Shown here in pieces: positions 8,460-28,930 of a stretch of DNA of 32,565 nt. Position 1 is the first letter of the stretch; each line of letters begins with the position of its first letter. Source of the DNA: a virus. Lineage: Duplodnaviria > Caudoviricetes. Both the position numbers and the translations under genes were made by a program. The notes under the pieces were generated by a model, which saw only the letters and a program-made list of their open reading frames with translations, did not search any database and was not told the origin of the DNA. Where the stretch lies: positions 1 through 32,565 of IMG/VR virus record IMGVR_UViG_3300037519_000052, one strand, 5' to 3'.

Positions 8460-10656
8460 TTTGTATGATGTTTATAAATTGTGAATTTCTAGGATTTGTA
8501 TATTGGATTTCAATTTCTTTAAATGCAACATCTCCTGTAGTGTTAGCTGCAATTGGAATTAAAAAAGTGCCGTCGCTTGTTACGTCTGCGTATAAAGTGC
8601 CACCATAAATAACGTCGTATTTTTCAGCGTTCAATTTTAAAATAGTAATTTCTAAATCTTGAGCCGTATTATCAATATTGAAAACAGATTTTAACGCAAA
8701 CTTTCCACTTCCAATATTAGCCACTTCTCTAAAATCTGAAATCAATTCCAAATCTACTTCTCCACTTGTTAAGTCTGTAGTGAAAGAATTAATGATATAT
8801 TTTTTATCCTTATAAATTAGTTTGTCATTCAGTTTAATATCGGACAGCATGGTAATTGGCATAATTGCCTTTAGTTTAACAATTCGGCAGCGGATGTTAT
8901 ATAGTGCCGAAATATAGTTTTGATACCACAAAGCGAATAATGAATTATTTGTATAGCCATTCATTAACCAACTGCTCTGCTCGTTTCCAAAGTTCAAACT
9001 TGCAATATCATTATTAATAAATAGTTCGTTTGAAAATCTTTGATAATCAAAAACGCTATCGTAGGTTGTTCCGTTAAAAAATTGAATAGTATTCACAAAT
9101 GGCGTTGTTAAACCATTCTTATACATAAGTATCGGCTTGGGTTTATAGGGCTTTAAATCCTTGTCTATTAACGTTGCAGTGATAAAGTTTTCGTCAATAG
9201 TTTTTTCCCACATTACGTCCTCAAACGGACTTTTAATTTCATAAGTTGCACTCTCATTCGAAAGATTGTCCTCGTACAATAAATCCCCATAATCGAACCC
9301 ACGATTAAAGGTGTTTCTAAAAGCATTATTTAAAATGCTTTCCGATTTTTCGTGTGCAAAACTTAATTTTTTATAAAGTTTAGTTCGGTCGAAATCTACG
9401 CTATCATTTATTACGAAATTATTAATATCGGTATATTTTCCATAGCTGTAGAAAAATTCCAAAGGCTCTAGATTAAAAGAAGTTTCTGAAGTTGCAGTAA
9501 TTGTAAGATTAAATAATTTAATAATTCCATTGAAAAAATCTACTACTTTTATGTCTGGAACAATAGCAGATAAATTAATGTCAGATGTTGTCGATGCAGA
9601 TATAGCAGCATAGTCATTTACTTCAATATACTGTTGACTTTGGTCATCATATTCTATTGTAGTTATTATTCTTTCTCCCGTAATTGTTAATGCTCCTAAA
9701 GTTTCAACATAAATATAAATTGGGTCAAAACCTCCAGTATTATATGCAGAAAAAATGTTAATTGATTGAATACCTATTATGTTATCAAATACATTTACAA
9801 CTAACCCAGTTGCGTTTTTTACTATAATTCTGTAAGGCACTAATAAATCAGAAGGACTACAATAAATTGTTATTATAGTATAGTTAAAATCATACGAAAA
9901 ATCATATTCAAATAAAAATATTGGCGGTGAATAAACATTTTGTTTTTTCTCACTATTCTTGCAATACAAATAAAGTTCACTCCAATACGAAGTATCAAAC
10001 AAAGTGCTTGTAAAAGTTATGTCATATCTATTCTCTATAAACTCAAATACTTTGCTTACCGGTATAGCAGGAAACAAATCGGAATAAACTACCGAAGTGT
10101 CAGGGCTTGACCCAATAGTTACATCATAAGCTCCACCATTCCCGTATGTGTATTGGTGTTGATTGCCTACTATTGGATAATAAACATTGTCTGTAGTTGT
10201 GCCATCAATTCTATTTTTAACCTCTGTAGGCGTATAATTATGATTAAGTGAAGTGTAATCTAATATTGATAATTTTTCCTCTTTAAATAGGTCTTTAATC
10301 TGTTTTACTTTTCCGTAAAATGTAATCGAATAGCTTTCTAAACGATTGTTTTTTTCGTTTGCTTTCTCAATTTGTATCTTACCACTTTTAAAAGGAATAG
10401 AATTCAACTCAATTATTGCGTCGTATCTAATACGTTGGTCAAATCCATCATTAACTCCGCTTTCGTTCCAATAATTGAAAATAATATTATTATTTTTGGA
10501 TGCAGGAATAGTGAAACTTTGCGTATAGTCTGTAAATACTTTCGAAAGGTCGTTAATGTTTTGAACGCTTGAAGTCAAAGAAATTTTTTCGTCCTTGAAT
10601 AAATCAATTCTTTTTAATTCCGTGCCTAATTTTATGTAAATTTCTACGCTTACCAT
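8452..10656 (-). CDS. Tail tip/baseplate hub-like protein
   Basis: 734 aa; N-terminal IDLF...ISLT..VQNINDLSKVFTDYTQSFTIPASKNN; adjacent to tape measure gene. Confidence 0.7.
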   Translation of the reverse strand: MVSVEIYIKLGTELKRIDLFKDEKISLTSSVQNINDLSKVFTDYTQSFTIPASKNNNIIFNYWNESGVNDGFDQRIRYDAIIELNSIPFKSGKIQIEKANEKNNRLESYSITFYGKVKQIKDLFKEEKLSILDYTSLNHNYTPTEVKNRIDGTTTDNVYYPIVGNQHQYTYGNGGAYDVTIGSSPDTSVVYSDLFPAIPVSKVFEFIENRYDITFTSTLFDTSYWSELYLYCKNSEKKQNVYSPPIFLFEYDFSYDFNYTIITIYCSPSDLLVPYRIIVKNATGLVVNVFDNIIGIQSINIFSAYNTGGFDPIYIYVETLGALTITGERIITTIEYDDQSQQYIEVNDYAAISASTTSDINLSAIVPDIKVVDFFNGIIKLFNLTITATSETSFNLEPLEFFYSYGKYTDINNFVINDSVDFDRTKLYKKLSFAHEKSESILNNAFRNTFNRGFDYGDLLYEDNLSNESATYEIKSPFEDVMWEKTIDENFITATLIDKDLKPYKPKPILMYKNGLTTPFVNTIQFFNGTTYDSVFDYQRFSNELFINNDIASLNFGNEQSSWLMNGYTNNSLFALWYQNYISALYNIRCRIVKLKAIMPITMLSDIKLNDKLIYKDKKYIINSFTTDLTSGEVDLELISDFREVANIGSGKFALKSVFNIDNTAQDLEITILKLNAEKYDVIYGGTLYADVTSDGTFLIPIAANTTGDVAFKEIEIQYTNPRNSQFINIIQNA

Positions 10657-15522: not shown

Positions 15523-15762
15523 TTATTTACTATTAATAGCATCTAAATAATCTTCTTTTGAAATATAAGAATTAAATTTAGAATTAATTAATTTACTTTT
15601 ATCTACATTTCCAAATATATCATTATCTTTTTCTTTTAATTTATTTTCAAACATCATAAATCTAATAAATTGAGATGTATTCATACCTTTATAAACTGCA
15701 GCAATTTCAATTTGAATTTTTTCTGCTTTAGTTAATCTAATTAATAATGTTGTTTTTTCCAT
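15523..15762 (-). CDS. Ribbon-helix-helix DNA-binding protein
   Basis: TTLLIRLT..EK..IE.AA...GMNTSQFIR pattern. Confidence 0.65.
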   Translation of the reverse strand: MEKTTLLIRLTKAEKIQIEIAAVYKGMNTSQFIRFMMFENKLKEKDNDIFGNVDKSKLINSKFNSYISKEDYLDAINSK

Positions 15763-16172
15763 TTTTCTTTTATTTTAGTGTTACACTTTTGTATTGTCGT
15801 GAAAATAGTTTTTAAACTTATTTTTGTTTCTTTTGCTATTTTGCGCATTGTCATTTTTTCATCATAATAGAGAAAGAAAATCTCTTTATCAAACCAATGA
15901 AAATCGTCTACTATTTCCAAAACCTCGTTTTGTTGTTCTATTTCTGAAATTATATTGACCTCGTCAATTGATACTTTTATAATCTTTTTTTGCTTTCGGT
16001 GTAAATCCATTGCTAAACTTCGCAAGGTTAAAAAGAAATAGCTTTCGTTTACTCTTTCTTTTTCTAGACATTTTATGTATGCCTCTTGTACTACATCCTC
16101 AGCATAGTCGGTTATCCCAAATTGCTTAACAATATTTATCCAGCGATTATGTTGTTTACAAATTTCTTTCAA
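15741..16172 (-). CDS. ECF-type RNA polymerase sigma factor
   Basis: Region 2 AEDVVQEAYIK...YFFLTLRSLAMD; region 4 HTH MTMRKIAKETKISLKTIF; TTG start. Confidence 0.85.
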   Translation of the reverse strand: MKEICKQHNRWINIVKQFGITDYAEDVVQEAYIKCLEKERVNESYFFLTLRSLAMDLHRKQKKIIKVSIDEVNIISEIEQQNEVLEIVDDFHWFDKEIFFLYYDEKMTMRKIAKETKISLKTIFTTIQKCNTKIKEKWKKQHY

Positions 16173-18659: not shown

Positions 18660-18922
18660 AACAAATTAAATTTTCTCCAATCGTTTGTATTCCATTGTCT
18701 AACCGATTTGTTCCAAAGTTCGTGTTTCATATCCTTGCGTAAGGTATCTAAAATTTCGTTTATATTTAAAGTTCGTTTTATTGGTTCCGATTTTATTTCT
18801 TTTGCTTTTACAATTATACCTTTGCTTTCTAAATATTTTATTTTTCTGTATGCTGAAAGTTTCTCTTTATTTTTATAATAATTATTTAAAGAAATTCTAG
18901 CAAGTTCCTCTTTTGTTTTCAT
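18656..18922 (-). CDS. Basic hypothetical protein
   Basis: Likely start MKTKEE with ATGA overlap; YYKNKEKL motif. Confidence 0.55.
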   Translation of the reverse strand: MKTKEELARISLNNYYKNKEKLSAYRKIKYLESKGIIVKAKEIKSEPIKRTLNINEILDTLRKDMKHELWNKSVRQWNTNDWRKFNLL

Positions 18923-19776
18923 AATTCTAACCAATTTTCTGATTTTATTTCTGGTAAATCTTCTCTAGGTAACCAATCATTACCAACTTTAAAAGATATG
19001 TCTTTAAATGCAATATTACGGCTATACTCGCATTTTGCGATAGTTAGTTCTTCTTCTGAAGAAACGAAAACAACCGTTTCAGCTTTCTTTAAAACGCTAC
19101 TTCCAACATGGCCAACTGGTTTTGATGTTCCGAAATTCTTATGTAATATTCCTGTGCAGTGCATCATACCTTTTGCAGTCCATTGAAGTAGTTTTTCTGT
19201 TAGTCCTGTCGCTTGTTCTAAGCTATTAAAATCGGTAACTAAATCTACATACCCATCAATTGACATTAAGCCTATTTTATCCTTGTATTCGCTTTCAAAT
19301 ACTACCCAATCAATAAAATCAAAACGTTCCTTTGGTGCATATTGTCGCAGCGAAAATGTTTTGTATTTATCTGAAGCGCTACCATACATTTCTAAAACTC
19401 TCCTTTGTACTCTTTGCGTGTGAAAAGTACTTTGTTCCGTATCAAATGAAATTACAAATTTATCGTTTTGATTGTGTCCTTGAATTGATGGAGAGTATTT
19501 ATTTGAATTACCCCCTAAGTAACTCGCTTCTATCATGGATTTAAAAAAAGTCTTTTTTGATTTTGACGCTCCAACTATGCAGGAAAAATCTCCATAACTT
19601 CCAAAAGGTGTAGGGTAATTAGTTCCTTTATATTCTGAAAATCCAATTGATAAAGCGATAGGCTGAGGTTTAATTTCTTCACTCGAATCAATTAAAGCCT
19701 CTTTAAAAATTGCTTTAAAATCAACTCCAACTATTAACTCGGGTTGTTGATCAATTATTTCAATTTGTTTAAACAT
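18919..19776 (-). CDS. P-loop ATPase (RecA/SF4-helicase-like, AAA_25 type)
   Basis: Degenerate Walker A GASKSKKT, SFDTEQ, Walker B MSIDG, ILHKN...GHVGS; in replication module; start MFKQIE inferred. Confidence 0.75.
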   Translation of the reverse strand: MFKQIEIIDQQPELIVGVDFKAIFKEALIDSSEEIKPQPIALSIGFSEYKGTNYPTPFGSYGDFSCIVGASKSKKTFFKSMIEASYLGGNSNKYSPSIQGHNQNDKFVISFDTEQSTFHTQRVQRRVLEMYGSASDKYKTFSLRQYAPKERFDFIDWVVFESEYKDKIGLMSIDGYVDLVTDFNSLEQATGLTEKLLQWTAKGMMHCTGILHKNFGTSKPVGHVGSSVLKKAETVVFVSSEEELTIAKCEYSRNIAFKDISFKVGNDWLPREDLPEIKSENWLEL

Positions 19777-20254
19777 TTTTAAATTCGTTAAGTGCAAAGG
19801 TTATCATTGCGTTTAAATTGGTTTCAGTTTCTGCGTAATCCCAAGTCTGGCAAACATCGTTAAATTCGATTGGATTAATTGTGGCGGCTAAATTAGAATT
19901 TAATTTTATATTTTCGCTTGAGTAAGGCTCTTTAAATCCTTTATTATTAAAATAATCTTTTATTTCAACTACATTTACATCCATTCTTGCGTGTTCATAT
20001 AGCGTTATCAATTTCATTTTTAAAATTCTGTTCACATTCTTTTGTGCCAAATCTAAATTAGAAGTTAAACGCAATTGCATGATAAAATTAGAAACATAAA
20101 GTTTAGCAAATAACTCGTTTTCGTGTACTTCTTGTTTTGTCGTTTGATTTATAAAGCTAATAACCTCGTTTAGAGCATTTACGTCGCTTGTATTTGGTTT
20201 ATTTTGGTTTTTAATAGTATAGCTTAATCTATTAATACTTTGTGCAATTGTCAT
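19769..20254 (-). CDS. Hypothetical protein (replication module)
   Basis: 161 aa helical ORF, coupled to neighbours. Confidence 0.6.
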   Translation of the reverse strand: MTIAQSINRLSYTIKNQNKPNTSDVNALNEVISFINQTTKQEVHENELFAKLYVSNFIMQLRLTSNLDLAQKNVNRILKMKLITLYEHARMDVNVVEIKDYFNNKGFKEPYSSENIKLNSNLAATINPIEFNDVCQTWDYAETETNLNAMITFALNEFKNV

Positions 20255-20514
20255 AGTTTATCAATTTTAGGGTCTATATGGCATCTTATCCAGTAACAAA
20301 CAACTTGAGTTGTTAATTTATAATTAACTCCAAATTTTCCAAGTGAACCAAGTTTAACCGCTTCGATTACTTGTTCAATACTTCTTTTTTGAAATTCATT
20401 TTTAATATCATTAAACATTTTATCAACGTTTTCAATATTACAATCTAATCTTTCGGCTGCTATTAAAAGCATTGTTTTTAATTTAAAGGTCGGGGAATTG
20501 TTTTCTAAGTTCAT
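20251..20514 (-). CDS. Hypothetical protein (replication module)
   Basis: 87 aa ORF overlapping the initiator 3' end. Confidence 0.6.
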   Translation of the reverse strand: MNLENNSPTFKLKTMLLIAAERLDCNIENVDKMFNDIKNEFQKRSIEQVIEAVKLGSLGKFGVNYKLTTQVVCYWIRCHIDPKIDKL

Positions 20515-21112
20515 CTATATTATATTTTTTTATGTTATTATTTTTAGTTTGTTGATTTAGCCATCTTACAAAATGGGTTGTAAATTCTTTTTTTTGTTGT
20601 TTAATATCTAATTTTAAATTCAAATCATTTTTAAATATTAATAGTTTTTCTTTTATTTCTTCAATATTAAATTTTGGTTGGTTTTGCATTGCGCAAGTTT
20701 CTAACCAAGTTTCAGAATTTATTAATTCTTTATAATAAATATCATTAACATTATCATTTACATTAACATTAACATTATCAGTTGGATTTGTTAAAGATTG
20801 TTCAACACTTTCAACACTTGTTGAATTTGTTAAATTTAATTCATCACTTTTTAATGCTCTTAATTCTGCTGAACGCTTTCCAGCATCACTTCTTTTTGAT
20901 TTAACTTCTTCGAATTTAATTAAATCACGCTTTAATTGTAATTCAATAGGTTTCCAAGCTGTTAAAATTAGCCTATCTTCTAAAATTGGATTATTATCAT
21001 TTACATATTCAAGCAAATGATTAAATAAAATTCCTTTTTCTTCATTTGTAAAATGTTCAATACTTTTAATTAAGTCTGAATACAATACAAAAGATTTTTT
21101 GTTTTCTGCCAT
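20483..21112 (-). CDS. Replication initiator/replisome organizer-like protein (DUF6291-type N-terminus)
   Basis: KKSFVLYSD...EEKG.LF..L.EY; RS.AGKRS; DNVNVNVNDNVND linker; C-terminal HF.RW. Confidence 0.7.
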   Translation of the reverse strand: MAENKKSFVLYSDLIKSIEHFTNEEKGILFNHLLEYVNDNNPILEDRLILTAWKPIELQLKRDLIKFEEVKSKRSDAGKRSAELRALKSDELNLTNSTSVESVEQSLTNPTDNVNVNVNDNVNDIYYKELINSETWLETCAMQNQPKFNIEEIKEKLLIFKNDLNLKLDIKQQKKEFTTHFVRWLNQQTKNNNIKKYNIDELRKQFPDL

Positions 21113-21206
21113 TTTTTTAAAAAGTTAATGCCTTACTACAAGCGGTGGACGTCGCAAGTAATAAGGCATTTATAATATTTTTTTAGTAGCGTCCACTCTA
21201 CAGATG
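21113..21206 (-). ncRNA. Structured 5' leader with kissing loops, copy A (before initiator gene)
   Basis: P1 GTAG-[AGTGGACG]-CTAC; P2 AATGCCTTATTAC..GCG-[ACGTCCAC]-CGC..GTAGTAAGGCATT; loops pair GTGGACG/CGTCCAC. Confidence 0.75.
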
Positions 21207-21236
21207 CAAATATAATACTTTTTATTTAATATCAAA
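21207..21236 (-). promoter_or_regulatory. Bacteroidota primary-sigma promoter
   Basis: TTTG-N18-TATATTTG, directly after a terminator. Confidence 0.75.
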
Positions 21237-21243
21237 CATAAAT

Positions 21244-21275
21244 AAAAAAAAACTTCCTAAATTAATAGGAAGTTT
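21244..21275 (-). terminator. Rho-independent terminator after SSB-like gene
   Basis: AAACTTCCTA-TTAATT-TAGGAAGTTT with continuing T run. Confidence 0.8.
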
Positions 21276-21285
21276 AATTGTAATA

Positions 21286-21579
21286 CTAGAACGGTAAGTC
21301 CGATTCGCTTACTACATCGCCCGGAGCAACTTCTTCAATTACTGGGGTGCTTTCCTTAAGGTTTCCAAAATAAAACTTGTCCTCTTTAGTTGCACCTTTA
21401 AAGCTGCTTTGAAAACTCGCAATGTTTCCGAACTTATCTAGTTCATCGTTTACCCAAACTTTTACGTTTAAGTAAATTTTTCCGTTTTCGTTTTTAGTAA
21501 ATGCTTTGTTTCCAGCTTTGGCTTGTTCCATCAATTTAGAGAAATCAATTGATCCGTAGTAACTTGTTTTTTCTGACAT
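21286..21579 (-). CDS. Putative single-stranded DNA-binding protein
   Basis: 97 aa beta-rich, GKIYLNV.VW, acidic tail ending SDLPF; near ERF gene. Confidence 0.65.
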   Translation of the reverse strand: MSEKTSYYGSIDFSKLMEQAKAGNKAFTKNENGKIYLNVKVWVNDELDKFGNIASFQSSFKGATKEDKFYFGNLKESTPVIEEVAPGDVVSESDLPF

Positions 21580-21586
21580 AATTTAA

Positions 21587-21988
21587 TTATTTAAGTATTA
21601 TTGGTAAATTTGCTTCTGTTGGTACGTATACCGTTTTATCTGATTTATATTTATACATTCCCTCAATCATTTGGAATTTTAAATATTCTGGATTGCTTTT
21701 TAAAGAGTTGCCCACAACTTCAATTGCTTTTGATTTTGCGTTAGCTTCTATTAATTTAGCTTTTGCCAATGCTTCTGCTTCAATTATTCTTGTGTCAGCT
21801 TCTAATTTTGCGCTTTCAAAATCCGCCTTAGCTTGTTCAACTTTAGCTTTTTTAGAAAATTCAGCTTTAAATAAAATAGATTTACCAGCAGTAACCGCAT
21901 CTTTTTCTGTTTGTTCTCTGTCAAAATCATAACAAGAAGTTAAACCTAATGCTACAAATAAACCTAGTGTAATCGTTAATTTTTTCAT
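21587..21988 (-). CDS. Lipoprotein with prohibitin/HflC-like coiled-coil C-terminus
   Basis: Signal peptide with lipobox LTSC; AEA-rich coil; NPEYLKF and VYVPTEANLPI. Confidence 0.7.
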   Translation of the reverse strand: MKKLTITLGLFVALGLTSCYDFDREQTEKDAVTAGKSILFKAEFSKKAKVEQAKADFESAKLEADTRIIEAEALAKAKLIEANAKSKAIEVVGNSLKSNPEYLKFQMIEGMYKYKSDKTVYVPTEANLPIILK

Positions 21989-21992
21989 AATT

Positions 21993-22091
21993 TTAAAATT
22001 TGTTGTTAAATAAATATTTGATAATTTTTGCCGATATTATGTAAAAAATTATTAGAATCGGCACTGCTAATAAAAAGATTGCTATTTTCAT
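21993..22091 (-). CDS. Small single-TM protein (32 aa)
   Basis: Hand-translated MKIAIFLLAVPILIIFYIISAKIIKYLFNNKF; fills the gap almost exactly. Confidence 0.55.
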   Translation of the reverse strand: MKIAIFLLAVPILIIFYIISAKIIKYLFNNKF

Positions 22092-22093
22092 AT

Positions 22094-22588
22094 TTAAAGG
22101 GTTAAAAATTCTGATTCTTGTTGTTTAGTAGTTGTGTATTTTGATTTAATCTGTTCCAATGAAAAACCGCCATCTTTGGCTTTCTTTAATATTTCAGTAG
22201 TTGCATTTGGTTTAGGTTGCATTGCTTTTTGTCCATCGTCATCGTCTGCGCCAACGCAAACAAATGATTGTAAACTATAACGACGTGCGTAGCTAATACC
22301 AGAACCTTGAGCCTGTGCGTCATTTATTTTATTATAAATGATTTCAGTAAGTGATTCCATTAATTCGCCTGATTCGTGCAGTAAAATAGTTTTTACAAAG
22401 TTTTTATTGTCTACGTGTACAATTGGTTGTAATACGCTTATTCCGTTGGAGTTTAATATTGGAATAACCGCCTCACGTATTGAGTTTAAATCTGCGTATT
22501 TTGATTTAAAGAAGGGATTTGTAGCACCTTTTTTTGGGTTGCTCATTTCGGACTGTGCTTTAAGTAAAGCTGTTGCAATTTGTTTCAT
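22094..22588 (-). CDS. erf: ERF-family ssDNA annealing protein
   Basis: NPFFKSKYADL, HESGE, QAQGSGISYARRYSL, DDDG. Confidence 0.92.
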   Translation of the reverse strand: MKQIATALLKAQSEMSNPKKGATNPFFKSKYADLNSIREAVIPILNSNGISVLQPIVHVDNKNFVKTILLHESGELMESLTEIIYNKINDAQAQGSGISYARRYSLQSFVCVGADDDDGQKAMQPKPNATTEILKKAKDGGFSLEQIKSKYTTTKQQESEFLTL

Positions 22589-22631
22589 AAGATAAGATAT
22601 TTATTTGTTTAAGATTTGTAAAGATATTGAT

Positions 22632-23069
22632 TTAAAATGAAATAGCCAAACTTGACTTTCTCGGAGTTGTTGAAACTCTTGGCACTTGATTCCCATAAGC
22701 GTCGAACGTGTCCTGTTTTAAAGCCATTTTAAGGACTTCTGCACGTTCATCTAAACAACGTTTAAGTTCGGTATAGATTTCATCATCTGAATAGTTTATA
22801 GTGTCTCCACCGCTTCTAAATGTTCCCTTTAATCCGTACGCTTCGAAGTTTTCTTGTGGGATGACTTTTAAAAGTTCGGTGTTAATTACATCGAGTGCTT
22901 CAATCATTCTTTTAGCCTGTGCCAATAACTCGAATTTGTCGGTTTCTCCAGCTTCTAAAATTTCAGTAATAAACTTTTTACTACTTGACTGAATTTCTTT
23001 TTTTGTAGGTACGAAATTTGATGTTTGAACTTCCTGTTCACGCATCATTAAAAATAGGTCTTTAGACAT
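22632..23069 (-). CDS. Hypothetical protein (recombination module)
   Basis: 145 aa ORF upstream of erf. Confidence 0.65.
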   Translation of the reverse strand: MSKDLFLMMREQEVQTSNFVPTKKEIQSSSKKFITEILEAGETDKFELLAQAKRMIEALDVINTELLKVIPQENFEAYGLKGTFRSGGDTINYSDDEIYTELKRCLDERAEVLKMALKQDTFDAYGNQVPRVSTTPRKSSLAISF

Positions 23070-23220
23070 TTTCAGTAGTTGTTAAAGCGTTATGTTTTTC
23101 GTACCAATAAAAACTCGTTTTTTCCTTTTCAGAAATTGTTGCGTCTTTCGCTATTAATTGGCTTTCTAGTTGCTCAATTAACAACATTTTTTCTTGTAAA
23201 ATTTTTAATAATGTTTCCAT
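23062..23220 (-). CDS. Small coiled-coil protein (52 aa)
   Basis: Hand-translated METLLKILQEKMLLIEQLESQLIAKDATISEKEK...; first ORF after leader copy B. Confidence 0.6.
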   Translation of the reverse strand: METLLKILQEKMLLIEQLESQLIAKDATISEKEKTSFYWYEKHNALTTTENV

Positions 23221-23325
23221 AATAATTTTTTTTAAAAAATATCCCGACTAAAATCTAGTAGGTCAGTACTAGCATAGTCGGGAATAAATAATGTTTTTTT
23301 AAATACCCTGACCGATATTGTTCTG
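23221..23325 (-). ncRNA. Structured 5' leader with kissing loops, copy B (before recombination operon)
   Basis: P1 AATATC-[GGTCAG]-GGTATT; P2 TCCCGACTA..CTAGTA-[CTGACC]-TACTAG..TAGTCGGGA then TATTTTTT; loops exactly complementary. Confidence 0.78.
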
Positions 23326-23336
23326 CAAATATAATA
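23318..23336 (-). repeat. 19-bp direct repeat containing TATATTTG promoter element (copy 1)
   Basis: Plus strand TTGTTCTGCAAATATAATA, identical to 25622-25640. Confidence 0.85.
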
Positions 23337-23340
23337 AAAA

Positions 23341-24135
23341 TTATATATTTAATCCACACATTTCTAAACAATTTTCACATTTACCTAAAAAGGCTTTTTT
23401 ATTAAATTTGCTTACTAATGCTTTTGTTTTCATAAAAGCCATTTTTTTAACTTTTATAATTTCTTTTACTACAAATTCATTTTTTGAACTTGGTCTAAAT
23501 ACTGTATCAATTATATTTTCATTTTTTAATAATTCATTTTGCATTAAACTCATTTCTAAACCTATTGAATTTTTTATATTAAAATCACAAGTAATAACTC
23601 TTAAAATTGATTTGCAATAAGGTTTTAAACGATTATATTCTTTTAATGAATTATCTATTAACTTTTTATTATCTAAAGCTGAAATAGATGTATTTATACA
23701 AATATTATATTTAGATATTTCTTTTAATTGTAAATCTGTTAAGGTTTTCCAATGTCTTGTTATAATTACAATTTGTTTTTTAGATGAAATATCAAATAAA
23801 GATAATTGACTATTTTCTTTAATTTGTTTTATAATATTTAGTGTATGTTCCCAATTTTCCGAAGGATCTCCAGTACATCCAATTCTTATAAAATCCATAT
23901 CAATTTTCTCAATTTGTTTTACTATTTGTAATCGATGTGCTTCGTTTAAAAAACTTCTTTCAATTGACTTACTAAAATCTATTCCATAACGTTTAGCGGT
24001 TTTTAAAGAATAACAATCATTATAACACCCTTTAGGGTTTTCTAATAATCCACTTTCACAACCTTTAATAGTATCTAAATCCCAAATACCCCTACCATTT
24101 TTAGATAGGGATATTATTTTTTTATAGGTTTTCAT
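23341..24135 (-). CDS. Radical-SAM-like Fe-S protein (SplB-like), non-canonical Cys spacing
   Basis: C26-x10-C37-x3-C41-Y, RIGCTGDP, IITR, NTSISALD, C-terminal CxxCxxxC; internal QLSLF. Confidence 0.65.
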   Translation of the reverse strand: MKTYKKIISLSKNGRGIWDLDTIKGCESGLLENPKGCYNDCYSLKTAKRYGIDFSKSIERSFLNEAHRLQIVKQIEKIDMDFIRIGCTGDPSENWEHTLNIIKQIKENSQLSLFDISSKKQIVIITRHWKTLTDLQLKEISKYNICINTSISALDNKKLIDNSLKEYNRLKPYCKSILRVITCDFNIKNSIGLEMSLMQNELLKNENIIDTVFRPSSKNEFVVKEIIKVKKMAFMKTKALVSKFNKKAFLGKCENCLEMCGLNI

Positions 24136-25526
24136 TATAAACGCCCTATATTTGGATAAAGATCTTTTATTTTTGATGTATCACCTTTATAAAAAACATA
24201 AATACGTTGTTCACATTTTGGATATTTACGAGAGTTTAATGTTTTTTTAGCTGTTGCACGTCTTGTAAATTCACTTTCTAAATAAATAATTTTATTATAA
24301 ACATGTAATCCTTGTTCTTTAAAAAACAATTCATGTTCTGCATCAGAACAATAATAACCGCCATCTTTATTTCTACTGTCTCCAGTCATTACAACAAAAA
24401 AAGTATTATCATTCATTACTGAAATAGCATTTTTGTAACCCTCAAAAAGCATGTCTCTAAATTGCTCATAAGTAGATAATGAATTTAGTTCACCTTCAGG
24501 ACTTTTACCATCATAATCTAAATAAGTTTCTACTTTATAATAAGGTGGACATGAAAAAATTAAATCATAATTTTGTTTAGGCACAAATTTTGAAGTATCA
24601 GATTTTAACCATTTTACATTAACAAAGTCTTGACAAAGTGCATTATTAGCATCACATTGATTTTGTCTAATTTCACTTGAAAGGTATTCAAAATTACAAC
24701 CCCCAGCAACAAAACCCATTTGAACACCACCGCCAAAAGGATTATAAATTCTACACCCATTTGTAGGCATAAACATTCTAGCTATAATTTCACAAGCAGT
24801 AGGATCAAGAACCGATGCGTTTCCGTTTAAATCTTTTGTTTTATCTGTTATAATTTCACCATCTACTACAGTTTGTTTAGATAAAACAACATTTGACATT
24901 CCAGCCTTACCTTGCCAACAACCTTCACGACTTGCGAATTTAGGATTAGGTATATTATATTTTAAACCAGCTTCCTCTAATTGAGCATTCCAAGCTCTTT
25001 TAACTTTTAACCATTCACCAGAAGTAGAGTTCCATAAATTAGTCATTGCCATATGGCATAATCTTTTAACTCTTACTTGTTCTTCTTTTCCATAATAAAT
25101 ATAAGTAAAATCATTTTTAGCTAAATTAATTTTAAACCCTAAGGCTAAAAATACTTTTGGATTTTCTAATTTATGTTTATTAGAAACTGTCATAACCATA
25201 TGATAATCATTTATATTTTGATCAATAATTTTTTGCACCATCATAGAATAAATTTCTTTATCCTCTTTCCCGGGATACATAGCTGATTGAAGTAAACAAA
25301 ATTCTTTTACGTTATGATTTACTTCATATGTAAAAAATCCACTAAACTCATCATTAATTTTTAAAATTATAGCTGAATGTTTTTGCATGTTTGCTCTTGC
25401 AGCACGATAAGCAATTTTATCAATTAATGCTAATTCTGCTACTTTTGTTTCATAACCTGATCCGATAACGCTATCCACTTGGATAAGTTCAATTTTTTCT
25501 TCAAATAAACTTTGTTGTTTTTTCAT
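24135..25526 (-). CDS. DNA amino-methyltransferase with N-terminal GNAT-like domain
   Basis: Motif I YNPFGGG, EIRQNQ, motif IV DLIFSCPPYY; N-terminal ~150 aa with GNAT-like pattern (FSGFFTY, LLQSAM, FLALGF); starts MKKQQSLF. Confidence 0.8.
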   Translation of the reverse strand: MKKQQSLFEEKIELIQVDSVIGSGYETKVAELALIDKIAYRAARANMQKHSAIILKINDEFSGFFTYEVNHNVKEFCLLQSAMYPGKEDKEIYSMMVQKIIDQNINDYHMVMTVSNKHKLENPKVFLALGFKINLAKNDFTYIYYGKEEQVRVKRLCHMAMTNLWNSTSGEWLKVKRAWNAQLEEAGLKYNIPNPKFASREGCWQGKAGMSNVVLSKQTVVDGEIITDKTKDLNGNASVLDPTACEIIARMFMPTNGCRIYNPFGGGVQMGFVAGGCNFEYLSSEIRQNQCDANNALCQDFVNVKWLKSDTSKFVPKQNYDLIFSCPPYYKVETYLDYDGKSPEGELNSLSTYEQFRDMLFEGYKNAISVMNDNTFFVVMTGDSRNKDGGYYCSDAEHELFFKEQGLHVYNKIIYLESEFTRRATAKKTLNSRKYPKCEQRIYVFYKGDTSKIKDLYPNIGRL

Positions 25527-25629
25527 AATATTTTTTTAAATAAATACCCGAACTAAAAGAGGTAAGGCACTCTTAAAATTCGGGATTTGTTTTTTTTCGT
25601 TCGACCGCCTTACTTGTCGTTTTGTTCTG
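25527..25629 (-). ncRNA. Structured 5' leader with kissing loops, copy C (before methyltransferase)
   Basis: P1 CGAC-[AAGTAAGGCG]-GTCG; P2 CCCGAAT..AAGAG-[TGCCTTAC]-CTCTT..GTTCGGG; loops pair GTAAGGC/GCCTTAC. Confidence 0.75.
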
Positions 25630-25640
25630 CAAATATAATA
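25622..25640 (-). repeat. 19-bp direct repeat containing TATATTTG promoter element (copy 2)
   Basis: Identical to 23318-23336; its core TGCAAATATAATA also occurs at 21205. Confidence 0.85.
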
Positions 25641-25667
25641 CTTTTTTTTAATTAAATGCGTTTTTAT

Positions 25668-25862
25668 TTAAAATCTTTTTTTATCTAACCAACATAATAT
25701 TGATAAAATAATAATAACTATAATACACATTCTTAAAAAAATAAAAGAAATACTTATTTTAATAATGCTTAAAGTTACAAAACAAGCTCCTAAATATAAT
25801 GCAACACCTATTACTAAAGGTACCATTAAAAAAAATAATAAAATTGATAAAAATTCTTTCAT
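25668..25862 (-). CDS. Small membrane protein
   Basis: 64 aa, two hydrophobic segments, basic C-terminus. Confidence 0.6.
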   Translation of the reverse strand: MKEFLSILLFFLMVPLVIGVALYLGACFVTLSIIKISISFIFLRMCIIVIIILSILCWLDKKRF

Positions 25863-25978
25863 AATAAATTCATTTTACTTTCAATAATATAAAATCCGTA
25901 TTCAATTTTCACGTCTGGCAAAGATTTTATTTCTAGTTTTTCCTTTGCTTTTTTTGCTTGTTCCTTTGTGTATTTCAT
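25859..25978 (-). CDS. Small hypothetical protein (39 aa)
   Basis: Hand-translated MKYTKEQAKKAKEKLEIK...; ATGA overlaps at both ends. Confidence 0.55.
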   Translation of the reverse strand: MKYTKEQAKKAKEKLEIKSLPDVKIEYGFYIIESKMNLL

Positions 25979-27169: not shown

Positions 27170-27351
27170 AATTGTACTTCTATTTGGTTAATTTTATCTT
27201 GTTCTAAAAGCGATATTAATCGGTTATCGCTTCGCTTTTTAATTTCAATTTGATTGAAGGCTTCCATCATTTGTTCGTTGTTTGAAATGTCACCGCCTAA
27301 ATTAGAAAACCATGTTTGGAAACGCGCGCACTCATTTATCCACTCTTCCAT
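27166..27351 (-). CDS. Hypothetical protein
   Basis: 61 aa ORF, coupled. Confidence 0.55.
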   Translation of the reverse strand: MEEWINECARFQTWFSNLGGDISNNEQMMEAFNQIEIKKRSDNRLISLLEQDKINQIEVQL

Positions 27352-27848
27352 TATTCTTGATTTAAAGTTAATAAATATGCTTTACAAGCGTTAAAAACTG
27401 CTTGAATTTGCTTAAATTCTTCCGTACCTCTTTCGGTAGTTAATTTTTCATCACTTGCAAAAAATAAATCCCAATTTTCAATAGTTCTTTTTTCACATCC
27501 TATTTTAATTTGATTTCCAATAACTGAAAAATTCCATTTACAAAATAAAGGTAAATATGCAGTTTCTTTGTTTTTAGCCGAACGCAAATCAGCCGAACTC
27601 AAATTAGCCGAATACAAATTAGCCGAACTCAAATTAGCCGAACGTAAATCAGCCGAACTCAAATTAGCCGAATACAAATTAGCCGAACGCAAATCAGCCG
27701 AATACAAATTAGCCGAACGCAAATCAGCCGAACGTAAAGAAACTTTTCCTTGAACTGCTTTTTCAACTGCATCTTTTATAGTTGCGTTTTCCGATTCGTA
27801 AGTAAATAGCAAATCGCCATAAATACTTTTAATTTCTATTTTAGTCAT
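27351..27848 (-). CDS. Pentapeptide repeat protein
   Basis: Ten SA[D/N]L[R/Y/S] repeats; C-terminal IKIGCE..TIENW. Confidence 0.92.
   Translation of the reverse strand: MTKIEIKSIYGDLLFTYESENATIKDAVEKAVQGKVSLRSADLRSANLYSADLRSANLYSANLSSADLRSANLSSANLYSANLSSADLRSAKNKETAYLPLFCKWNFSVIGNQIKIGCEKRTIENWDLFFASDEKLTTERGTEEFKQIQAVFNACKAYLLTLNQE
27576..27738 (-). repeat. 15-bp tandem repeat (about 10.5 units) encoding the pentapeptide repeats
   Basis: Units TCGGCTGATTTRCGT, TCGGCTAATTTGTAT, TCGGCTAATTTGAGT. Confidence 0.95.
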
Positions 27849-28650: not shown

Positions 28651-28677
28651 AAAAAAACCACCCTAAAAGAGTGGTTT
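28651..28677 (-). terminator. Rho-independent terminator ending the late operon
   Basis: AAACCACTC-TTTTA-GGGTGGTTT with continuing T run. Confidence 0.8.
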
Positions 28678-28680
28678 GAT

Positions 28681-28770
28681 TAATCATTAAGGGACTCGAA
28701 CCCTTATCTATTGCAGGACTTGCAACATGCTACCCTTGCCGCTATTCATTCACGGTTACACCAAACGATT
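28681..28770 (-). ncRNA. tRNA-like RNA (non-canonical; no assignable anticodon)
   Basis: Acceptor AATCGTT/AATGATT, D stem GTGT/GCAT, stem TTGCA-[AGTCC]-TGCAA, T arm AAGGG-TTCGAGT-CCCTT; enlarged D-loop; no encoded CCA. Confidence 0.75.
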
Positions 28771-28930
28771 AACTTAATTTGTGAGCAAACATTTTTATTA
28801 TCGTTGTAGGCTTTATAAACTTACAAACTAAACGTAAAAAGAAACCCGCATTCGTTGTGGCTGGACTACTTGCGTAATCCGTTGCTACTGCATCTAAAGC
28901 ATTTTTGATTGGTTCTGGAATATTATTCAT
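28769..28930 (-). CDS. Small protein with basic amphipathic C-terminus (53 aa)
   Basis: Hand-translated MNNIPEPIKNALDAVATDYASSPATTNAGFFLRLVCKFIKPTTIIKMFAHKLS. Confidence 0.6.
   Translation of the reverse strand: MNNIPEPIKNALDAVATDYASSPATTNAGFFLRLVCKFIKPTTIIKMFAHKLS

What the first reader, a model, noticed from the sequence alone, without database searches (positions are those of the whole stretch)
21113..25637. Three 5' leader RNAs with the same kissing-loop fold but different loop-pair sequences
Seen: three intergenic regions (21113-21214, 23221-23333, 25527-25637) share one layout on the minus strand. It runs TATATTTG promoter element, small hairpin P1 5-9 nt later, A-rich linker, long hairpin P2 with an internal loop, U-rich tract, A-rich tract, ATG. 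In each, the P1 loop is complementary to its own P2 loop: GTGGACG/CGTCCAC, GGTCAG/CTGACC, GTAAGGC/GCCTTAC. Stems and loops differ largely between copies while pairing is kept, so this is covariation within one genome. The leaders precede the replication, recombination and DNA-modification operons. Established analogies: the IncI-alpha repZ pseudoknot and the two-hairpin put antiterminator RNA of HK022. Inference: a cis-regulatory RNA class (attenuator, antiterminator or translational switch) in Bacteroidota phages. I do not recognise a matching Rfam family but cannot exclude one.
Basis: partly seen in the sequence, partly recalled or inferred. Interest (0 to 1): 0.9.

Follow-up and report, generated by a model that had tools for sequence, protein, structure and literature searches.

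The report
Kissing-loop gate RNA of Flavobacterium phages
This phage starts its DNA-replication, recombination and methylation genes with three copies of an uncatalogued leader of about 85 bases, in which two hairpin tips always match each other although the letters differ from copy to copy; it likely works as a transcription gate whose loop-to-loop pairing would hold a stop-signal hairpin open.

Summary
Three minus-strand leaders (21214-21113, 23333-23221, 25637-25527) each have a TATATTTG box, a small 5' hairpin P1, an A-rich linker and a long interrupted hairpin P2. Each P1 loop matches only its own P2 loop (6-7 bp; 2 bp across copies).

The family is wide: 117 distinct members with 58 loop-pair strings in related viral contigs, plus six cultured Flavobacteriaceae phages. 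Covariation passed two searches blind to the pairing (20 of 20; 42 of 42, against 3.6% for swapped pairs). Rfam 15 gives no match.

The leader heads replication, recombination, methylase and homing-nuclease genes. It is absent from early promoters, interchangeable between genes, and sometimes missing. P2 ends in a U-rich tail about 18 nt before the ATG.

Best reading (0.5, untested): an attenuator in which the kiss hinders closure of the terminator base, as proposed for the guanidine-IV riboswitch, but without a conserved ligand pocket. Main rival (0.2): a 5' mRNA stabiliser. No expression data were available. The scan noted this family before on other genomes.

The parts
25630..25637 (-). Copy C: TATATTTG -7 promoter box (primary sigma factor consensus TAnnTTTG); predicted start about 25625
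   Evidence: box position -12 to -5 and 4-5 nt spacing from PMC9723704 and PMC6847099; start site not measured
25602..25619 (-). Copy C: hairpin P1; loop carries GTAAGGC (25613-25607)
25546..25586 (-). Copy C: hairpin P2 with internal loop; apical loop carries GCCTTAC (25568-25562); tail TATTTATT after the last G-C pair
24135..25526 (-). First gene after copy C: 463-aa DNA methyltransferase, followed by a 264-aa gene with no family match (23341-24135)
   Evidence: PHROG 498, E 1e-37; PF01555 weak, below cut-off
23326..23333 (-). Copy B: TATATTTG promoter box; predicted start about 23321
23302..23319 (-). Copy B: hairpin P1; 6-nt loop GGTCAG (23313-23308)
23242..23283 (-). Copy B: hairpin P2 with 2x4 internal loop; 6-nt loop CTGACC (23266-23261); tail ATATTTTT
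21286..23220 (-). Operon after copy B: 52-aa and 145-aa genes, Erf-like annealing protein (22094-22588), 133-aa gene, 97-aa SSB-like gene
   Evidence: the SSB-like label is inferred from its acidic C-terminus and position, with no family match
21250..21275 (-). Ordinary intrinsic terminator ending the recombination operon, just upstream of promoter A
21207..21214 (-). Copy A: TATATTTG promoter box; predicted start 21202/21201
21186..21201 (-). Copy A: 5'-terminal hairpin P1; loop carries GTGGACG (21196-21190)
21171..21185 (-). Copy A: 15-nt A-rich unpaired linker
   Evidence: family linker 60% A
21127..21170 (-). Copy A: hairpin P2 (13-bp base, 2x2 internal loop, 3-bp cap); loop carries CGTCCAC (21151-21145); weak tail ATTAACTT
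20483..21112 (-). First gene after copy A: 209-aa DUF6291 protein, likely a replication initiator; heads the replication operon (NinB, NinG downstream)
   Evidence: PF19808, E 5e-16; 76% identical over 111 aa to 'replication protein' of Olleya phage Harreka_1

Best explanation
Each copy is a promoter-proximal leader of about 85 bases whose 5' hairpin loop is complementary to the loop of a longer, U-tailed hairpin, and it likely acts as a transcription attenuator in which the loop-loop pairing would hinder closure of that terminator-like hairpin and let polymerase read into the DNA-metabolism operon.

Shown: the layout, the covarying loop-loop helix, the position between promoter box and an unstructured initiation region, the U-rich tail, and the gene context.

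Inferred: (1) transcription starts at or just before P1; (2) the base of P2 plus its U tract terminates part of the transcripts; (3) the P2 loop leaves the polymerase about 10 nt before the termination point, so the kiss can form first; (4) the stacked P1-kiss-P2 cap, tethered by the A-rich linker, slows zipping of the P2 base; (5) the result is damped or delayed expression of replication, recombination, methylase and homing-nuclease genes from otherwise consensus host-type promoters. What tips the balance (speed, pausing, Mg2+, temperature or a shape-reading protein) is not identified. A small-molecule ligand is unlikely.
For: Terminator-like P2 base: uninterrupted basal stem of median 8 bp, and at least 2 G-C among the basal 4 pairs in 69 of 76 members. 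T at positions 1-5 after the last G-C pair is 56/88/92/82/74%, mean 5.5 of 8 (n=85), against 2.5 of 8 at the same distance before 444 leaderless gene starts. The tails resemble those of obvious operon-end terminators in the same contigs.

P2 is split into a short cap (mostly 2-6 bp) and a base by an internal loop or bulge in 76 of 78. The kiss target ends a median 17 nt before the last G-C pair. In truncated folds of A, B and C the long-range pairing is the minimum-energy state at about 60-72 nt, before full P2 takes over at 72-78 nt.

Precedent: for guanidine-IV a kissing loop between a 5' hairpin and the terminator loop hinders the full terminator stem; a stretched linker is the proposed cause (PMC11611296 passages; PMC7736828 Discussion).

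Context: leader at 32 of 34 promoter-like sites within 3 kb downstream of erf, 18 of 29 just upstream, and 0 of 16 in the early region. Downstream genes are initiators, primases, helicases, methylases, ParB and HNH or homing nucleases (16 of 38 had no PHROG match). The same 147-149-aa gene has a bare promoter and an 18-19 nt UTR in five contigs, so the leader is an optional insert.
Against: There are no transcript ends, probing or reporter data. Copy A and its close relatives have a poor tail (4 T in 8). A simple terminator scan does not call any of the three P2 hairpins, because their stems are interrupted. The T-rich tail could merely pair with the A-rich linker. Kiss and full P2 are not exclusive in secondary structure. 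A rough straight-rod estimate uses only a median 0.61 (10-90%: 0.46-0.90) of the linker's maximal reach (assumed 2.8 A per bp and 5.9 A per nt). Linker length does not track helix length (rho -0.10, p 0.44, n=57). No early protein shared by all carrier phages was found that could serve as a trigger.
Confidence: 0.5

Rival explanations
1. 5'-end stabiliser or expression enhancer. The folded kissing structure does not terminate; it shields the 5' end and blocks nuclease scanning, so middle-gene mRNAs last longer, while the initiation region stays free.
For: P1 starts within 5 nt of the box end (about +2 or earlier) in 69 of 88 members. P2 stops about 18 nt before the ATG, the same length as a bare UTR. 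The kiss and full P2 look sterically compatible. Copy A has a weak U tail. The unrelated DUF805b motif ends a similar distance before an ATG in the same phages. That 5' hairpins and pseudoknots stabilise bacterial mRNA is recalled, not read here.
Against: It does not explain the strong T bias right after the last G-C pair. It also does not explain why potentially toxic homing nucleases carry the leader while early promoters lack it.
Confidence: 0.2
2. Self-addressed feedback in trans. Terminated short RNAs accumulate, and their free P2 loop captures the P1 loop of nascent transcripts of the same copy. This prevents the cis kiss and shuts that operon down, with the loop sequence acting as an address. 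It is loosely like phage P4 CI RNA (recalled).
For: Loops of the three copies do not cross-pair. There are 58 different loop strings. In 3 of 89 members the P1 loop string recurs at the start codon, giving the P2 loop a second possible target; the larger Riemerella-phage element shows a similar echo.
Against: With a position-matched control, lack of cross-pairing is not beyond chance: 0 of 28 within contigs against 19 of 756 between contigs. An intramolecular kiss should outcompete a trans partner unless full P2 excludes it.
Confidence: 0.1
3. The short terminated RNA is the functional product (decoy or protein-binding small RNA). The kiss stabilises it or favours termination, and downstream genes live on leak-through.
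For: Promoter, compact fold and U tail form a self-contained unit that is interchangeable between genes.
Against: It sits just before a same-strand start codon, 13-22 nt away in 54 of 81. Several different copies per genome suggest one per operon rather than one product. My sampling is gene-centred, which weakens this objection.
Confidence: 0.08
4. put-like processive antiterminator: the folded RNA binds RNA polymerase and makes it ignore distant terminators.
For: Two hairpins lie directly after a phage promoter, in more than one copy per genome, as for putL (PMC9378689 passages).
Against: putL and putR share sequence and form a V shape with nucleotide-specific contacts; the passages read describe no loop-loop helix. 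Here no column exceeds 60% identity. Each operon has its own promoter, including one right behind a terminator. Single nuclease genes also carry it.
Confidence: 0.06
5. repZ-type translational switch: the pseudoknot opens or closes the ribosome site, coupled to a leader peptide and an antisense RNA.
For: Copy A contains a 14-codon ORF through P2 (sequence). A few members repeat the loop string at the start codon.
Against: P2 ends outside or at the edge of the -20 to +20 low-structure region. 29 of 76 leaders have no upstream ATG. Antisense promoter boxes occur in 4 of 76 against a 15.9% background.
Confidence: 0.04
6. Ligand-sensing riboswitch of the guanidine-IV kind.
For: Same two-hairpin, kissing, terminator-containing architecture.
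Against: No conserved nucleotides to form a pocket. The gene context is phage DNA metabolism, not transporters.
Confidence: 0.02

Closest known systems
Guanidine-IV (GGAM-1 / mepA motif) riboswitch (PMC7736828, PMC11611296)
   Same: A 5' hairpin loop kisses the loop of a hairpin that is itself the intrinsic terminator; a flexible linker joins them; the kiss is proposed to hinder the terminator base during transcription.
   Different: Guanidine-IV has nucleotides conserved at 97% in its loops, binds guanidine, precedes sugE, MATE and PnuC genes, and is listed from six phyla that do not include Bacteroidota. This family has no conserved column, 58 loop strings, and precedes phage DNA-metabolism genes.
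HK022 putL/putR (PMC9378689)
   Same: About 70-85 nt, two stem-loops, phage-encoded, putL directly after a promoter.
   Different: put is a V-shaped RNA with shared sequence that binds the beta-prime zinc-binding domain and acts over kilobases; the passages read report no loop-loop helix. Polymerase binding was not testable here.
IncI-alpha repZ pseudoknot (recalled; no paper read)
   Same: A hairpin loop pairs with a distant leader sequence upstream of a replication gene.
   Different: repZ control is translational and needs a leader peptide, a Shine-Dalgarno region and an antisense RNA. None of these is a general feature here.
Lambda pR'-6S RNA-tR' and leader intrinsic terminators (recalled)
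   Same: Strong promoter, short RNA, terminator, then an operon that needs read-through.
   Different: No kissing loop is known there, and read-through needs the Q protein. No shared candidate factor was found here.
DUF805b RNA (Rfam RF02914)
   Same: A structured cis-regulatory candidate in the same phages, ending about 18-22 nt before an ATG; in one subfamily it lies directly behind the kissing-loop leader.
   Different: A 33-35 nt conserved-sequence motif with a different fold. It does not overlap the leader and was not found in the window.

Membership tests
Any Rfam 15 family | Match at the family's gathering score | tested here: not met
   0 in the window; only weak unrelated matches at E up to 10 in 20900-25900; none on the leader in 13 and 15 further loci covering other subfamilies, where only DUF805b and one tRNA were hit. 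I did not verify that Rfam 15 holds a guanidine-IV model.
Guanidine-IV riboswitch | Kissing loop between a 5' hairpin and the loop of a terminator-type hairpin | tested here: met
   Covariation and blind tests; terminator-like base and tail by sequence only
Guanidine-IV riboswitch | Highly conserved (97%) loop nucleotides that bind guanidine | tested here: not met
   No position above 60% across 58 loop strings, aligned on the ends of the kiss, which is an approximate register
Guanidine-IV riboswitch | Upstream of guanidine-related transporter genes | tested here: not met
Guanidine-IV riboswitch | Ligand-dependent read-through | not testable with these tools
   Needs in vitro transcription
HK022 put antiterminator | Two stem-loops downstream of phage promoters | tested here: met
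HK022 put antiterminator | Sequence similarity among copies, reflecting polymerase-contacting residues | tested here: not met
   The three copies differ in stems and loops; no conserved column. I did not align them to put itself.
HK022 put antiterminator | Binds RNA polymerase and suppresses distant terminators | not testable with these tools
   No experiment possible
IncI repZ pseudoknot control | Pairing partner next to the ribosome site, leader peptide, antisense RNA (features recalled) | tested here: not met
   The target lies in the P2 apex, 33-41 nt before the ATG in the window; no upstream ATG in 29 of 76; antisense boxes in 4 of 76
Intrinsic terminator / attenuator | G-C-rich stem base followed directly by a U tract | tested here: inconclusive
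   Met on family average (5.5 of 8 T) and in B and C (6 of 8); weak in A (4 of 8); not called by the simple scanner
Intrinsic terminator / attenuator | RNA 3' ends at the U tract, with condition-dependent read-through | not testable with these tools
   No RNA run could be laid on the region

The most novel reading that the evidence does not exclude
A ligand-free, sequence-agnostic RNA timer. Any matching loop pair sets up a race between a kissing loop and terminator closure, and the terminated RNAs feed back in trans on transcripts with the same loop 'address'. Flavobacteriaceae phages and their homing endonucleases would thereby get operon-specific, protein-free temporal control, and possibly specificity against co-infecting relatives.
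Probability: 0.12. Interest if true: 0.88.

Novelty: new variant of a known kind. Interest (0 to 1): 0.62.

Why it matters
How lytic Bacteroidota phages time their genes is poorly known, and here early and DNA-metabolism genes appear to use the same host-type promoter box. This leader marks the DNA-metabolism promoters and not the early ones, so it is a concrete candidate for the missing timing or damping layer. It is testable now, because six cultured phages carry it.

It would also give dozens of natural, ligand-free versions of the steric kissing-loop antitermination proposed for guanidine-IV, a mechanism its discoverers left open. Mutually non-cross-pairing copies could serve as control parts for Bacteroidota engineering.

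Tried and rejected
- Chance or artefact: rejected.
- Selection for non-cross-pairing loops within a genome: 1 of 94 looked striking against 10.4%, but with a position-matched control it is 0 of 28 against 2.5%, so it is not supported.
- Linker-helix length coupling: none.
- A conserved loop-E motif in P2: only 11 of 76.
- Universal leader peptide or antisense promoter: not found.
- A shared phage-encoded trigger protein: only the DUF6291 protein is common to all six compared genomes, two of them partial, and it is also in the two without the standard leader.
- Host chromosomes: model searches of 151 and 61 genomes gave 0, but only 24-60 of up to thousands of candidates per genome were scored and a known prophage variant was missed, so they are uninformative.
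- Expression: no RNA holder listed, which is no evidence either way.
- The swapped-pair control had an indexing error and was redone.
- Published transcriptome of phage phi18:3: the paper is not held.
- Fremin 2023 candidate RNAs: six short motifs were not found in the supplements that could be searched. Files 1, 2 and 4 were not searched and three further files are unreadable, so an entry there is not excluded.
- The Weinberg 2017 supplement was unreadable.
Full report
Setting. The window is a 32.6-kb virus record with its genes on the minus strand: portal, terminase, tail, Erf, NinB, NinG and methylase. No integrase matched among the 40 proteins scanned. The closest named relatives are Flavobacterium phage 11b (Erf, 62%) and Olleya phage Harreka_1 (DUF6291 protein, 76% over 111 aa), so a Flavobacteriaceae host is inferred. 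TAnnTTTG is the primary promoter box of these bacteria, at -12 to -5 (PMC9723704 section 15 part 1; PMC6847099 passages). That places the predicted starts at or up to 6 nt before P1.

Observation. The three elements are as described (coordinates under parts). They fold with z -4.3, -3.8 and -2.9, leaving both loops open, whereas the three other minus-strand TATATTTG sites do not fold unusually. One of these (28545) is the plain promoter of the small upstream genes. Own-loop pairing is 7, 6 and 7 bp, and cross-copy pairing is 2 bp. My descriptor fired on 0, 3 and 0 of 500 shuffles.

Family. I fetched 24, 80, 20 and 80 viral loci; some are the same contig. In a first unbiased pass over 2905 TAnnTTTG sites, 559 had a strong downstream hairpin. 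Of these, 75 had at least 7 bp between the 5' region and their own loop (13%), against 0.9% for swapped pairs. A stricter descriptor gave 122 hits in 70 of 105 sequences, 114 on the loci's plus strand, against 5 on reversed sequence; a few hits are duplicates or spurious. After keeping five promoter spellings and sense-strand hits and dropping one evident false hit, there are 117 distinct members, 85 non-redundant, with 58 loop strings.

Covariation. In 14 copy-A-like leaders all 7 kiss pairs are kept, 3 with changes on both sides. In 18 copy-B-like leaders all 6 are kept, 2 with such changes. Those sets were picked by complementarity, so two blind tests matter more. First, a pattern fixing only the promoter and P1, with three loop letters free, found 20 stretches. 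All 20 carry the exact 7-base complement downstream, in 6 different loop versions (five are contigs seen before). Second, a covariance model built from subfamily A without the kiss found 56 matches in 1.03 Mb, including copies B and C (the 61 sources were mostly loci with known hits). All 42 non-training matches have at least 6 bp, against 55 of 1546 swapped pairs. No column is conserved above 60% across the 58 strings.

Range. Copies lie in the replication module of cultured phages 11b, Harreka_1, lillamy9-1, elemoA_7-9A, phi18:3 and phi13:2. A variant with an extra hairpin precedes the DUF6291 gene of a prophage in genome G180, and three-way-junction variants precede some methylase genes. 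None was found in a 42.5-kb human-gut phage record. A 30-kb part of Riemerella phage PJA1 has a larger element with a 14-base long-range match. In 400 kb of G180 the descriptor gave 1 hit at 503 sites, without the two-hairpin fold, and missed the prophage variant. Absence from host genes is therefore suggested only weakly.

Context. Among 119 promoter-like sites in 80 erf-centred loci, the leader is at 32 of 34 within 3 kb downstream of erf, 18 of 29 within 1.5 kb upstream, and 0 of 16 in the early region 1.5-3 kb upstream. Of 38 first genes scanned (of 64 distinct), 22 had a PHROG match at E 1e-5. The named ones are replication initiators, primases, helicases, a methylase, ParB and HNH or homing nucleases. 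The leader is not tied to a gene. Of the 32 closest methylase orthologues examined (of 80), 5 have a descriptor-detected leader with 4 different loops, 5 have a bare promoter, 3 have the three-way variant, and the rest show neither. The loop of copy C precedes the 52-aa gene in other contigs. Five contigs express the 147-149-aa gene from a bare promoter with an 18-19 nt UTR. This argues against gene-specific feedback or metabolite sensing, and for a generic, optional control module.

Mechanism. P2 has a short cap, an internal loop (76 of 78) and a G-C-rich base of median 8 bp. A T-rich tail follows (5.5 of 8, against 2.5 at matched positions). The 30 hairpins found just upstream of the same promoters average 4.2, but that set mixes clear terminators (tails of about 4-7 T) with noise. 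P2 ends 13-22 nt before the ATG in 54 of 81, at the edge of the -20 to +20 region that F. johnsoniae keeps unstructured, so ribosome-site occlusion is unlikely. The kiss target ends a median 17 nt before the last G-C pair. With roughly 12-14 nt hidden in polymerase (general knowledge), the kiss can form about 10 nt before termination. In truncated folds the long-range pairing is the favoured intermediate. This matches the model for the guanidine-IV riboswitch, where a kissing loop hinders the full terminator stem and a stretched linker is the proposed cause. I therefore favour a ligand-free attenuator in which the kiss promotes read-through (0.5). Against it: the weak tail of copy A, no call by a simple terminator scan, a linker that looks long enough for both states, no linker-helix correlation, no shared trigger protein and no expression data. 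A 5' stabiliser is the main rival (0.2). Trans feedback by terminated RNAs (0.1), a stand-alone small RNA (0.08), put-like action (0.06), repZ-like control (0.04) and a riboswitch (0.02) follow.

What is known. No Rfam 15 family matches the leader. Four full-text searches combining kissing or loop-loop, Bacteroidetes, phage leader, DUF805 or Flavobacterium term-seq terms returned nothing. Others listed general motif surveys, none describing this RNA in the parts I saw. Subscription journals are mostly not covered. What I saw of each paper: PMC9723704, abstract, section 19, part 1 of section 15 and passages; PMC10690425, part 1 of 5 and a partial supplement search; PMC5737381, passages, supplement unreadable; PMC9378689, PMC6847099 and PMC11611296, passages; PMC7736828, passages and Discussion; PMC2864571 and PMC5335546, listing only. 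An unannotated entry among the 10,006 Fremin candidates cannot be excluded. repZ, P4 CI, lambda pR' and 5'-hairpin stabilisation are recalled.

Earlier scan notes. The same design was reported on several other genomes. These are unchecked notes and not evidence. Two of them pointed to guanidine-IV, which I then read. Sequence and place look-ups returned nothing.

Verdict. This is a real, well-supported, uncatalogued structured leader family. It works most plausibly like the guanidine-IV expression platform but is not a member of that family. Its function is untested. Novelty: new variant of a known kind. Interest 0.62.

Noticed in passing
L042:4962-4994, L063:2111-2143, L065:3531-3563; similar motif after the box at L115:13744 (minus): The Rfam DUF805b motif ends about 18-22 nt before an ATG in these phages. 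In L042 it lies directly behind the kissing-loop leader, and in elemoA a look-alike follows the promoter of the recombination region. Its loop GCC could pair with its 3' GGC as a small pseudoknot.
   Followed up: partly
L009 (box near 8943), L012 (near 5246), L015 (near 1600); L116:4590-4773 (minus): The P1 loop string recurs at or next to the start codon (3 of 89 members; about 0.1% expected). A larger leader in Riemerella phage PJA1 shows the same echo, so the P2 loop there has two possible partners.
   Followed up: partly
L174, L176, L177 (about 150 nt upstream of the methylase); L109:1360-1500: Longer variants in which P2 is a three-way junction and the kiss target sits in a side hairpin or junction strand (5-7 bp).
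   Followed up: partly
window 28655-28790 (minus): An intergenic run of hairpins with a tRNA T-arm-like GGTTCGAGTCCC, ending in a clear terminator (28677-28655), upstream of the early promoter. ARAGORN and Rfam call nothing; folding z -2.2.
   Followed up: partly
window 27351-27848 (minus): 165-aa gene with tandem 15-nt repeats encoding a pentapeptide-type repeat.
   Followed up: no
window 23341-24135 (minus): 264-aa gene after the methylase with several cysteine clusters and no Pfam or PHROG match; it may be an iron-sulfur enzyme of a DNA-modification pathway.
   Followed up: partly
window 18919-19797 (minus): Protein with a Walker-A-like motif in the replication operon, 37-39% identical to hypothetical proteins of phages 11b and Harreka_1; probably the helicase; no family match.
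   Followed up: partly
window 15741-16172 (minus): 143-aa protein with a weak sigma-factor or helix-turn-helix match shortly before the terminase, in the position of a late-gene activator.
   Followed up: no
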